From the human T2T-CHM13v2.0 reference genome, Homo sapiens, in the NCBI RefSeq assembly GCF_009914755.1, contig NC_060937.1: a stretch of 64,000 nt of DNA; one strand, written 5' to 3'. Position 1 is the first letter of the stretch. Every line of letters starts with the position of its first letter. A program made the translations under genes and the position numbers. This document shows, piece by piece, positions 60,856-63,827 of this stretch. A model generated the notes under the pieces. The model searched no databases. It saw nothing but the letters and a program-made list of their open reading frames with translations, and was not told where the DNA came from.

Positions 60856-61480
60856 TATTATCTAAGTATCTAAGTAACAACGTTTGAGAGGTTATTAGGC
60901 CTATATATGAACATGCTACTAACTAGAAAAAAGTTATGTGCAAAGGAGCTTTGTGATGTACCTTATTATATTGTTGAATGGAACGTAACTTTTCATTAAA
61001 CAAGTTCCTAACACATTTTATAGAATCTAACAAATGAGATTTCAGAGGCCTATATATAAACATGAAAATTCAGCCCAATAACTAAAAACAAGCCATGTGA
61101 GAAGAAGCTTTGTGATGTGCTTTATTATATCACTGAATGTAACCTGTGTTTTTATTAAAGAAGTTCCAAACACACATTTTATCGTTTTATACAACCTAAG
61201 GAATGACATTTCAGAGGCTGTTAGGCCCACATGTGAATATACAAATATTCATCCTTAATAACTAAAAACAATCTGTGCATGAAGAAGCTTTGTTATGTGG
61301 TATTTCAGATCACTGAATGAATGGAACCTGTGTTTTTATTAAACAAGTTCCAAACACACGTTTTATAAAACCTAAGGAATGACATTCCAGAGGCTATTAG
61401 GTCTTATGTGAATATTTGAATATCCATCTCTAATAACTAAAACAGTCTGTGTGCAAAGATGCTTTGTGATGTGGTGTTTC

Positions 61481-61597
61481 TTTTTTTTTTTTTGAGACGG
61501 AGTCTCACTCTGTCGCCCAGGCTGGAGTGCAGTGGCACGATCTCGGCTCACTGCAAGCTCTGCCTCCTGGGTTCACGCCATTCTCCTGCCTCAGCCT
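61481..61597 (-). mobile_element. 5'-truncated AluY inside the satellite
   Basis: Right-arm 3' part only; TSD tggtgtttc. Confidence 0.9.
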
Positions 61598-63060
61598 TTG
61601 GTGTTTCATATAACTGAAAGAAACCTGTGTTTCTGTTAAACACATACTAGAAACATGTTTTGTAGAATCTAACCAATGACATTTCAGACATTGTTAGGCC
61701 TATATATGAACATATGAATATCCAGACCTATTAACTGGAAAAAAGCTATGTGCGAAGAACATTTGTGATGTGCTTTATTATATCACTGAATGAAATGTGA
61801 GTTTCCATTAAACAAGTTGTAAAAACACGTTTTGTAGAACCTATTTAATGAGATTTCAGAGGCAATCAGGCCTATATATAAACATATGAAAATCCAGCCT
61901 TAATAACTAAAAACAAGCTATGTGAGCAGAAGCTTTGTGATTTGCTGTTTTATATCAATGAATGGAACCTGTGTTTTTATTAAACAACTTCCAAGCAGAC
62001 GTTCTTTAGAACCCAGGGAATGACATTTCAGAGGCTATTAGGTCTATATATGAATATACGAATATCCATCCCTAATAACTAGAAACAATCTGTGAAGAAG
62101 CTTTGTGATGTGCTGTCTCACATCACTGAATGGAACCTGTGTTTTTATTAAACTAGTTCCAAACACACATTTTTTAGAACCTAAGGAATGACATTCCATA
62201 GGCTATTAGGCCTATGTATGAATATACAACTATCTATCACTAATAACAAAAAACAATCTATGTGCGAAGAAGCTTTAGGATGCACTGTTTTATATCACTG
62301 AATGGAACAAGCATTTCTGTTAAACAAGTTCCAAAAGGACGTATTGTAGAATCTAAGTAATGACATTGCAGAGATTATTAGGCCTCTATATGAACCTACT
62401 AATATCCAGCCCTAATAACTAGAAACAGCTATGTGCAAAGAACATTTGTGATGTGCTTTATTATATCGCTGAATGGGACGTGAGTTTTCATTAAACAAGT
62501 TCCAAACACACATTTTGTGGAATCTAATTAATGAGATTTCAGAAGCTATTAGGCCTATATATAAACTATTAGGCCTATATATAAAAATACGGAGCCTTAA
62601 TAACTAAAAGCAAGCTATGTGTGAAGAAGCTTTGAGCTTTGGGATGTACTATTTCATATGAATGAGAAGAACCAGTGTTTTTGTTAAACAAGTTACAAGC
62701 ACTCATTTTTTAGAACCTAAGCAATGACATTTCAGAGGATATTATCCTATATATGAATATACGAGTATCCATCCCTAATAACTAAAAACAGCTTTGTGAT
62801 GTGCTGTTTTATATCACTGAATGGAACCTGTGTTTTTATGAAACAAGTTTCAAACATGTTTTGTAGAATCTACAAAAATGACATTTCAGAGGTTATTGGG
62901 TTTATATATGAATATACACATATCCACTACTAATAACTAGAAACAAGCTATGTGTGAAGAAGCTTTCTGATGTGCTTTATTATATCACTGAATGCAACTG
63001 GAATCTCCATTATACAATTTCCAAACATATGTTTTGGAGAATCTAAGAAAGGAGATTTCA

Positions 63061-63357
63061 GGCCGGGCATGGTGGCTCACGCCTATAATCCCAGAACTTT
63101 GGGAGGCCAAAGCGGGCAGATCACCTGAGGTCGGGAGTTCGAGAGCAGCCTGGCTAACATGGAAAAACCCCGGCTCTACTAAAAATACAAAATTAGCCGG
63201 GCATGGTGGCGCATGCCTGTAATCCCAACTACTTGGGAGGCTGAGGCAGGAGAATCACTTGAACCCGGGAGGCGGAGGTTGCAGCGAGCCGAGATCACGC
63301 CACTGCCCTCCAGCCTGGGCAACAAGTGGGAAACTCTGTCTCAAAAAAAAAAAAAAA
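63061..63357 (+). mobile_element. AluSp-like element inside the satellite
   Basis: gaggtcgggagttcgag diagnostic; TSD core gagatttca. Confidence 0.9.
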
Positions 63358-63827
63358 GGAATGAGATTTCAGAGACTATTGTACCTACATAGATTTTCAG
63401 CCCTAATAATGAAAAACAAGCTATGTGAGGAGAAACTTTCTGATGTGCTGTTTTATATAAATGAATGGAACCTGTGTTTCCATGAAGCAAGTTCCAAACA
63501 CATGTTTTGTAGAATCTCAGATATGACATTTCAGGGGCTATCAGGCCTATATATCAACATATGAACGTCCAGTACTAATAACGAAAACCAAGCTATGTAC
63601 AAAGAAGCTTTGTGATGTGCTGTTTTAAATCACTGAATGGAACCTGAGTTTCCATTAAACAAGTCCAAACACAGGTTTTGTAGAATCTAAACAATTACAT
63701 TTCTGAGGTTATTAGGCCTATATATGAACATGTGACTATCCAGCTCAGTTAATTATCATGAAGATATGGGTGAAGGAGCTTTGGGATGTGCTTTATTATA
63801 TCACTGAATGGAACCTGTTGTTTCATT

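What the first reader, a model, noticed from the sequence alone, without database searches (positions are those of the whole stretch)
60860..63827. Relic alpha-satellite-like array inside SACS intron 1, on a chromosome arm
Seen: ~15 tandem monomers of ~172 bp. Against a remembered 171-bp alphoid consensus, the offsets from GTGATG to GAACCT (+28), GTAGAA (+69) and AGGCCTAT (+103) are identical. My hand alignment gives only ~60-65% identity, with one extra base in the A/B-box region and no CENP-B box. Known: alpha satellite is normally peri/centromeric, and 172-bp monomers characterise the 'ancient' dead layers and monkey alphoid DNA. Inference: this may be a very old, possibly unclassified alphoid family, either a fossil of an ancestral centromere or a displaced pericentromeric duplicon, now read through by a disease gene.
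Basis: partly seen in the sequence, partly recalled or inferred. Interest (0 to 1): 0.8.

Follow-up and report, generated by a model that had tools for sequence, protein, structure and literature searches.

The report
Known ancient alpha-satellite relic in SACS
A 3-kb block of about 15 very diverged alpha-satellite (centromere-type) repeats really does sit in the first intron of SACS, but it is already annotated and published, and it looks like an old satellite fragment moved to the arm, not a dead centromere.

Summary
Window 60865-63826 (+) is one continuous array of 14 full and 2 partial ~172-bp monomers, broken only by two Alu insertions. It is homologous to centromeric alpha satellite taken from the same genome. 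Consensus identity to an X-centromere consensus is 65%, and the score is about 10 SD above shuffles. Profiles built only from other alphoid DNA hit it at E down to 4e-7 (HOR monomers) and 4e-26 (old monomeric layers). There is no CENP-B or pJα box.

It is not new. Feliciello et al. 2020 (PMC7719264) list this SACS cluster as seven RepeatMasker ALR/Alpha fragments (sat_360-366) and date it to the hominoid ancestor. The T2T centromere preprint created SF13-18 for such far-from-centromere relics.

New here:
- It is a single array, not seven separate fragments.
- It falls in a well-supported deep clade with arrays at C3:128.38, C7:65.6 and C22:22.55 Mb and with dispersed fragments.
- It keeps a faint 4-monomer periodicity.
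- It is nested in a GC-rich minisatellite whose paralogs lack alphoid DNA.

A relocated relic is favoured over an in-situ dead centromere. Interest is low.

The parts
60865..63826 (+). Single array of 14 full and 2 partial ~172-bp alpha-satellite-type monomers (2,547 alphoid bases once the Alus are removed; GC 33%; 16 CpG against 69 expected)
   Evidence: TRF; 17 contiguous nhmmer hits; profiles built without this family hit it; composition
60865..62957 (+). Part of the array with a faint 4-monomer higher-order periodicity. Units 4 apart are 80-87% identical (for example u01/u05/u09 at 85-87%), against 75-77% at other lags
   Evidence: Lag-4 mean is 80.3% (n=12). 2 of 5000 shuffles of monomer order reach it at lag 4, and 30 of 5000 at any lag from 1 to 8
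61481..61596 (-). 5'-truncated Alu inserted into a monomer, with a perfect 9-bp target-site duplication TGGTGTTTC (61472-61480 and 61599-61607)
   Evidence: Read from the sequence; nhmmer shows model positions 1-13 before it and 14-171 after it
63062..63357 (+). Full-length Alu with poly(A), inserted into a monomer. The duplicated target is alphoid sequence (63048-63061 and 63358-63372, with a 2-bp indel)
   Evidence: Sequence. It is 10.0% diverged (7.7% outside CpG) from a majority consensus of 44 near-full Alus from this window and the loci fetched up to then, ranking 24th of 44
58811..60850 (.). Left flank: GC-rich minisatellite with an 18/19/37-bp unit (consensus about TGTCCACCTGGGGCCTGA). 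It includes a 72-bp x 3.2 sub-array at 96% identity (59153-59381)
   Evidence: TRF. Colinear with C5:176.59 and C5:178.34 Mb at 73% over 1.45 kb. At least 390 genome matches at E<=1e-5 (40 of 79 candidates scored; 150 listed)
63830..64000 (.). Right flank: the same minisatellite resumes and runs past the window end, to about window-equivalent 64620
   Evidence: TRF; BLAST of the flank to the paralogs

Best explanation
This is a small, dead block of an ancient, divergent alpha-satellite lineage. It was built elsewhere by tandem amplification, the last visible round being of a 4-monomer unit. It had already decayed when it was carried, or inserted, into a GC-rich minisatellite in what is now SACS intron 1 / SACS-AS1 intron 1. 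It was hit by two Alus. Today it is inert intronic DNA that is transcribed through and spliced out. It has no CENP-B or pJα boxes and no centromere role.

Shown: the tandem structure, the homology to alpha satellite, membership of a deep clade, Alu insertion after the array formed, paralogs of the host sequence without alphoid DNA, and prior annotation and publication.

Inferred: origin in pericentromeric heterochromatin, the mode of transfer (duplicative transposition or circular-DNA reintegration, as PMC7719264 proposes), and the lack of function.
For: (1) Structure.
(2) Homology: consensus alignment 65%, about 10 SD above shuffles. A profile of 103 centromeric HOR monomers gives 13 hits inside the array at E<=10, 5 of them at E<=1e-3 (best 4.4e-7). 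A profile of 325 old-layer monomers gives 15 hits at E<=1e-3 (best 3.6e-26). The reversed window and 20 shuffles give nothing better than E=1.1.
(3) Clade: in a FastTree of 605 monomers, window + C3:128.38 + C7:65.6 + C22:22.55 Mb + 9 of 11 dispersed fragments form an exclusive clade of 157 (support 0.992). The 12 window monomers used are monophyletic (0.85).
(4) Antiquity: fragments of this clade match, by chromosome, position and size, sat_685, sat_496, sat_828, sat_730 and sat_722 of PMC7719264, which are dated there to Simiiformes, 45-60 Ma.
(5) Amplification before arrival: partners 4 units apart differ by 13-20%. That is more than 20-30 My of neutral change would give (inference).
(6) Insertion context: the host minisatellite has colinear paralogs at 5q35 (two copies) and 22q11. 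None has an alphoid hit at E<=1.
(7) No centromere boxes: 0 of 12 monomers lie within 4 mismatches of either box, against 24 of 103 exact CENP-B boxes in HOR monomers.
(8) Print: seven ALR/Alpha fragments, 'single insertion event', dated to Hominoidea.
Against: - No donor survives. The best long match elsewhere in the genome is 69% (C7:65.6 Mb), whereas a copy made 20-30 Ma should still be above 90%. The donor was therefore lost or excised, or the published date is too young.
- I found no clean target-site duplication at the array ends. The 18-bp phase at the two junctions is ambiguous (sequence).
- Both flanks map to overlapping parts of the paralogs (by 210-465 bp on C5, about 280 bp on C22). 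This could be a long flanking duplication or merely tandem-repeat register slippage. The left and right flanks are only 70% alike.
- The full Alu is as diverged as a typical AluS. By recalled subfamily ages, that is as old as or older than the published insertion window.
- The published dating used RepeatMasker fragments with 100-200-bp flanks. Here those flanks are themselves alphoid, Alu or minisatellite, so absence in monkeys is not secure.
- A single-sequence profile of the X-centromere consensus found 0 hits in the window at E<=1e-3. The homology to active-centromere monomers is real but distant.
Confidence: 0.8

Rival explanations
1. In-situ fossil of an ancestral primate centromere at 13q12, now shrunk to 3 kb and read through by SACS.
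For: [quoted passage not shown] The flanking minisatellite belongs to a family whose listed matches lie mostly in low-coordinate and mid-chromosome regions that I read as acrocentric short arms and pericentromeres. The monomer type is very old.
Against: There are only 2.5 kb of alphoid DNA in one block, with no second layer in the 64-kb window or in 10 kb either side. The host sequence has paralogs without alphoid. The published orthology analysis places it only in Hominoidea. I recall no ancestral centromere mapped at 13q12 (recalled, not searched).
Confidence: 0.07
2. Seven independent, or separately inserted, short alpha repeats interspersed with Alus, as the RepeatMasker fragments suggest at face value.
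For: The hg19/hg38 annotation lists seven fragments of 0.8-3.7 monomers with gaps of 14-426 bp. A separate 3-4-bp 'TS-duplicated sequence' is tabulated for each.
Against: Monomer-phase hits are contiguous from 60865 to 63826. Every gap not filled by an Alu is itself alphoid in the correct phase. The 12 near-full monomers used in the tree form one clade, and a 4-unit periodicity runs across the fragment boundaries. The paper itself concludes a single insertion event.
Confidence: 0.03
3. The array has been co-opted as a regulatory or heterochromatin-nucleating element for SACS or SACS-AS1. It would not be merely inert, though still alphoid.
For: It lies 2.7 kb downstream of SACS-AS1 exon 1 and within the SACS 5'-UTR intron (hub table). 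PMC7719264 cites work reporting that euchromatic alpha repeats gain H3K9me3 after heat stress and may affect neighbouring genes (passage only).
Against: Nothing in the sequence points to constraint. Monomers are 75% identical pairwise, CpG is depleted (16 observed against 69 expected) and two Alus were tolerated. No chromatin or expression data could be examined.
Confidence: 0.08
4. An unrelated 172-bp satellite that resembles alpha satellite by chance.
For: Identity to active-centromere consensus is only 58-65%. A single-sequence profile of that consensus missed the array.
Against: The alignment is colinear over the whole monomer and about 10 SD above shuffles. Profiles give E down to 4e-26. 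A graded series of intermediates exists: window 89% to 3q21, 3q21 89% to old layers, old layers 72% to HOR.
Confidence: 0.01

Closest known systems
SACS intronic alpha-repeat cluster sat_360-366 (Feliciello et al. 2020, Genome Biol Evol, PMC7719264)
   Same: It is the same locus: hg38 chr13:23422199-23424924, SACS intron, two Alus interspersed, judged a single insertion event.
   Different: The paper counts seven fragments totalling 9.9 monomers (1,688 bp). I find one array of about 15 monomers (2,547 alphoid bases), so about a third went unrecognised by RepeatMasker. My mapping of their fragments onto the window rests on the gap pattern, not on a liftover. The paper found no supported grouping of the monomers. 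Here they form a clade (0.85) with a 4-unit periodicity.
Ancient suprachromosomal families SF13-18 of the T2T alpha-satellite classification (Altemose et al., bioRxiv 10.1101/2021.07.12.452052)
   Same: They are small, highly divergent alphoid pieces far from the centromere, which is exactly this kind of object.
   Different: I could not see Table S5 or run the HumAS-HMMER models. Whether this array is listed, and under which SF, is unknown.
Arrays at C3:128.382-128.397 Mb, C7:65.600-65.608 Mb and C22:22.5476-22.5534 Mb of the same genome
   Same: Same deep clade (support 0.992), ~172-bp monomers, no CENP-B box, and consensus 86-89% identical to the window's. The chr3 array also has the same GC-rich minisatellite about 10 kb away.
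   Different: They are 6-14 kb long. The window's monomers form their own sub-clade, and its consensus is the furthest from both the old layers (80%) and HOR (60%).
Old monomeric layers next to centromeres and the large arm arrays (C23:57.37, C19:30.24, C16:38.45, C17:28.09; C1:103.9, C3:81.0, C4:12.25, C5:24.0 Mb)
   Same: 172-bp monomers, 70-73% internal pairwise identity, and no CENP-B boxes.
   Different: Their consensuses are 93-100% alike among themselves but only 71-75% or 80% (pooled) identical to the window's.
Active centromeric HOR alpha satellite (C23:59.0, C13:16.5, C17:25.0 Mb)
   Same: Colinear monomer with shared landmarks at +28, +69 and +103.
   Different: 58-65% identity; 171 against 172 bp; HOR monomers carry CENP-B boxes (24 of 103 exact) and the window's carry none.

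Membership tests
Alpha satellite (ALR/Alpha) | Head-to-tail tandem monomers of about 171 bp | tested here: met
   Period 172/171; 17 contiguous same-strand hits in monomer phase
Alpha satellite (ALR/Alpha) | Significant full-length homology to bona fide centromeric alpha monomers | tested here: met
   Global consensus alignment 65%, score 35 against -0.8 +/- 3.5. The HOR-only profile reaches E 4.4e-7 (5 hits at E<=1e-3). The old-layer profile reaches E 3.6e-26 (15 hits). Controls are clean. Against this: the single-sequence X-consensus profile gave 0 hits
Alpha satellite (ALR/Alpha) | Recognised by the curated ALR model (RepeatMasker/Dfam) | not testable with these tools
   No Dfam on hand. 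PMC7719264 took seven ALR/Alpha fragments at this locus from the hg19 rmsk table
Alpha satellite (ALR/Alpha) | A-type (pJα) or B-type (CENP-B) box in the box region | tested here: not met
   0 of 12 window monomers lie within 4 mismatches of either box (motifs recalled). The same holds for the 7q11 and 22q11 arrays. This feature is typical of the younger families, not required of all alpha satellite
Named suprachromosomal family (SF1-18) | Best hit to one SF monomer-class HMM (HumAS-HMMER) | not testable with these tools
   Models are not available. There was no class in the 2015 hg38 track ('-' in Table 1). The SF13-18 table is in a closed supplement
Relic (dead) centromere | Sizeable alphoid domain, usually layered or flanked by other alphoid layers | tested here: not met
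   There are 2.5 kb in one block and no other alphoid hit in window 1-60800 or in 10 kb on either side. The one weak hit, at 37587-37702 (E 0.007), lies on Alu-like sequence
Relic (dead) centromere | Orthologous to a centromere of another primate or of the ancestral karyotype | not testable with these tools
   No primate genomes are held. PMC7719264 reports presence only in Hominoidea
Higher-order repeat (HOR) alpha satellite | Multi-monomer unit repeated with much higher identity between units than between neighbouring monomers | tested here: inconclusive
   Lag-4 identity is 80.3% against 75-77%, with 2 of 5000 shuffles reaching it (30 of 5000 at any lag). This is a decayed 4-unit duplication pattern, not a homogeneous HOR

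The most novel reading that the evidence does not exclude
The SACS array, together with the C3:128.38, C7:65.6 and C22:22.55 Mb arrays and the simian-age dispersed fragments, could be a distinct basal alphoid lineage that current SF models do not separate. This lineage would once have had multi-monomer (4-mer) higher-order structure, although a review states that no SF older than SF6 has been found in HORs (PMC9549924). It would also be habitually linked to one GC-rich minisatellite. On that reading the published 'Hominoidea' date is an artefact of repeat-rich flanks and the block is much older in place.
Probability: 0.12. Interest if true: 0.4.

Novelty: already known. Interest (0 to 1): 0.15.

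Why it matters
It matters little. Alpha satellite on chromosome arms has been catalogued since 2004: 133 blocks more than 5 Mb from centromeres, as cited in PMC7719264. This very locus is in a 2020 paper. What remains of modest use:
- RepeatMasker sees only about two thirds of the array and splits it into seven pieces. That affected how the paper tabulated 'insertions' and their 3-4-bp 'target duplications'.
- The array belongs to a well-supported deep alphoid clade whose largest member is at C3:128.38 Mb.
- No donor survives in the genome. This is an awkward fact for a 20-30 Ma copy-type transfer and could be resolved with T2T primate assemblies.

Tried and rejected
- A single-sequence profile of the X-centromere 171-bp consensus found 0 hits in the window at E<=1e-3. 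Only multi-sequence profiles detect the array.
- A 17-nt family-specific pattern search of the genome was uninformative: 64 matches against 53 for the reversed-pattern control.
- A weak alphoid-profile hit at window 37587-37702 (E 0.004-0.085) lies on Alu-like sequence, so I rejected it.
- A target-site duplication at the array ends cannot be told apart from the 18-bp periodicity of the host.
- The apparent 400-bp flanking direct repeat (60439-60847 against 63849-64244, 70%) scores little better than other registers: 142 against 116 and 100 bits. I do not claim it.
- A poly(A) tail on the C3:102.66 Mb fragment was my first reading. Both flanks turned out to be A-rich, so it is an insertion into an A-rich tract.
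- The name of the flanking minisatellite was not determined. Gamma satellite crossed my mind from recall, but no tool could test it.
- Literature: searches for SF13/SF17/SF18 descriptions and for an ancestral centromere at 3q21 gave nothing usable. The Science version of the T2T centromere paper is not held, so I read passages of the preprint.

Full report
**The object.** TRF reports a 172-bp period over 61608-63061 (8.5 copies, 73% matches) and a 171-bp period over 63398-63817. A profile of the TRF consensus gives 17 same-strand, head-to-tail hits from 60865 to 63826. Read with the sequence, this is one array of 14 full and 2 partial units.

Two units are split by Alus:
- A 5'-truncated antisense Alu lies at 61481-61596, with a perfect 9-bp target-site duplication.
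- A full sense Alu lies at about 63062-63357, and its duplicated target is alphoid sequence.

Both Alus therefore entered an array that already existed. The alphoid part is 2,547 bases, 33% GC, with 16 CpG against 69 expected.

**Is it alpha satellite?** The window's own genome can be searched, so I took reference alpha satellite from it and used none from memory. The references were C23:59.0, C13:16.5 and C17:25.0 Mb. They show 171-bp periods with longer higher-order periods (1870 bp on C13) and 11-18 CENP-B core boxes per 6 kb.

- The window consensus aligns colinearly with the C23 consensus at 65% identity. The score is 35, against -0.8 +/- 3.5 for 30 shuffles at their best rotation. That alignment shows the one extra base at the start of the box region.
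- A single-sequence profile of the C23 consensus found nothing in the window at E<=1e-3.
- A profile of 103 HOR monomers gave 13 hits in the array at E<=10, 5 of them at E<=1e-3 (best 4.4e-7).
- A profile of 325 old-layer monomers gave 15 hits at E<=1e-3 (best 3.6e-26).
- The reversed window and 20 shuffles gave nothing better than E=1.1.

The homology is real but distant. No monomer carries a CENP-B or pJα box, even allowing 4 mismatches (0 of 12; motifs recalled).

**Where it sits among alphoid DNA.** Genome searches found many ~172-bp arrays, and I fetched 36 stretches. Array consensuses fall into three tiers.

| Comparison | Consensus identity |
|---|---|
| Old group among themselves (C1:103.9, C3:81.0, C4:12.25, C5:24.0, C23:57.4, C19:30.2, C16:38.5, C17:28.1 Mb) | 93-100% |
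| Old group vs HOR | 70-74% |
| C7:65.6 and C22:22.55 Mb vs window | 86% |
| C3:128.38 Mb vs window | 89% |
| Window vs old group | 71-75% (MAFFT columns) or 80% (pooled, profile columns) |
| Window vs HOR | 58-60% |

I built a FastTree from 605 monomers, keeping hits that cover at least 140 of 172 model positions and dropping shorter ones. That kept 12 of the window's 15 generic-profile hits, and 2 of 13 fragment loci dropped out. In this tree the window, chr3, chr7 and chr22 arrays and 9 of 11 dispersed fragments form an exclusive clade of 157 monomers (support 0.992). The 12 window monomers are monophyletic (0.85). An earlier tree of 518 monomers agreed.

**A faint higher-order trace.** Across the 16 ordered units, identity at lag 4 is 80.3% and at lag 8 is 78.8%, against 75-77% at other lags. 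Only 2 of 5000 shuffles of monomer order reach the lag-4 value, and 30 of 5000 reach it at any lag from 1 to 8. Units u01, u05 and u09 are 85-87% alike. The last amplification thus copied a 4-monomer unit and has since decayed by 13-20%.

**Context.** The array is nested in a GC-rich minisatellite with an 18/19/37-bp unit, running from about 58811 to 60850 and from 63830 past the window end.

- This minisatellite is not unique to the locus. At least 390 genome matches were reported, with 40 of 79 candidates scored and 150 listed.
- I read most of the listed matches, from their coordinates, as acrocentric short arms and pericentromeres. This reading of the coordinates is recalled.
- There are colinear 73% paralogs at C5:176.59 and C5:178.34 Mb, and copies at C22:20.03 Mb. 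One copy lies about 10 kb from the chr3 alphoid array.
- The unique-looking stretch 57675-59236, which holds SACS-AS1 exon 1, has paralogs only at C22:20.03 (78%) and C22:25.16 Mb (81%).
- None of the fetched paralogous stretches has an alphoid hit at E<=1. The alphoid block is therefore an addition to the chr13 copy.
- I could not define a target-site duplication. The apparent overlap of the two flanks on the paralogs may be register slippage.

**What is in print.** I read the abstract, passages, Table 1 and supplementary file 1 of Feliciello et al. 2020 (PMC7719264).

- They took ALR/Alpha annotations from the hg19 rmsk table. [quoted passage not shown]
- The sizes are 1.5, 0.9, 3.7, 1, 1.2, 0.8 and 0.8 monomers. 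No SF monomer class is given. The fragments are described as adjacent to AluYjk or AluSp.
- The cluster is dated to the Hominoidea ancestor (20-30 Ma) and judged a single insertion event, possibly via circular DNA.
- Their fragments add up to 1,688 bp. By the gap pattern they cover roughly window 61040-63770. This is my inference, not a liftover.
- Several of my dispersed fragments match their entries by chromosome, position and size: sat_685, 496, 828, 730, 722, 826, 83, 704, 1147 and 380/381 are dated Simiiformes, sat_705 Catarrhini and sat_378 Hominidae.
- The paper also cites 133 alphoid blocks more than 5 Mb from centromeres.

I read passages of the T2T centromere preprint. [quoted passage not shown] That table is in a closed supplement and may well list this array. 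A search for SACS with 'alpha satellite' and 'intron' found only the Feliciello paper and a set of conference abstracts that I did not open.

**Reading.** The novelty does not stand.
- There is only one 2.5-kb block.
- It sits inside a host repeat whose paralogs are empty.
- The published orthology study finds it only in apes.

A relocated piece of old satellite fits better.

**Open points that cut against a simple story:**
- No donor above 69% identity remains in this genome.
- The 4-unit copies are too diverged to have been amplified after a 20-30 Ma arrival (inference).
- The full Alu is 10.0% diverged (7.7% outside CpG) from a majority consensus of 44 Alus, which is typical of the set.
- The published date rests on short flanks that are themselves repeats.

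Either the block moved by excision and reinsertion together with its Alus, or it is older in place than reported. Long-read primate assemblies would decide between these.

**Verdict.** It is already annotated and published, and it is most likely inert. Interest is low.

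Noticed in passing
L031/L032 (G000:C3:128382231-128396531): A roughly 14-kb array of ~172-bp monomers, the largest member of the window's clade. Its consensus is 89% identical to the window's and 89% to the old layers. The same GC-rich minisatellite lies about 10 kb away at C3:128406453-128407736. Whether this marks an ancestral centromere was not resolved (one search found nothing).
   Followed up: partly
window 58811-60850 and 63830-64000; L043, L044, L046: The GC-rich 18/37-bp minisatellite that hosts the array belongs to a family with at least 390 genome matches, mostly at coordinates I read as acrocentric short arms and pericentromeres. 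It has colinear 73% paralogs at two inverted 5q35 sites. Its repeat-library name was not determined.
   Followed up: partly
window 57675-59236: The stretch holding SACS-AS1 exon 1 has only two paralogs in the genome: C22:20032212-20033766 (78%) and C22:25155374-25156128 (81%). Each lies next to the same minisatellite, so this is an old low-copy duplication.
   Followed up: no
L026, L027, L028, L029, L030: Five of 13 dispersed alphoid fragments of this and related types sit inside A-rich tracts, some of which are visibly Alu poly(A) tails. The C3:102.66 Mb fragment (326 bp) is followed by about 40 A's and preceded by 11 A's. Two of the five (L028, L029) are duplicate copies on either side of the chr6 centromere. 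This may bear on how such fragments insert.
   Followed up: partly
L034 (G000:C15:91669450-91669764): Two partial monomers lie in opposite orientation about 40 bp apart, forming an inverted pair. They match sat_380/381 of PMC7719264 by position and size.
   Followed up: no
window 59153-59381: A 72-bp unit is repeated 3.2 times at 96% identity inside the otherwise 61-70% minisatellite. This is a recent local triplication.
   Followed up: no
window 62546-62585: A perfect 20-bp tandem duplication (CTATTAGGCCTATATATAAA x2) inside one monomer makes that unit 192 bp long.
   Followed up: no
G000:C19:30244254-30254451: Three hits with identical scores lie 4,629 bp apart. Old-type 172-bp monomers near the chr19 centromere are thus arranged in a 4.6-kb higher-order duplication.
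   Followed up: no
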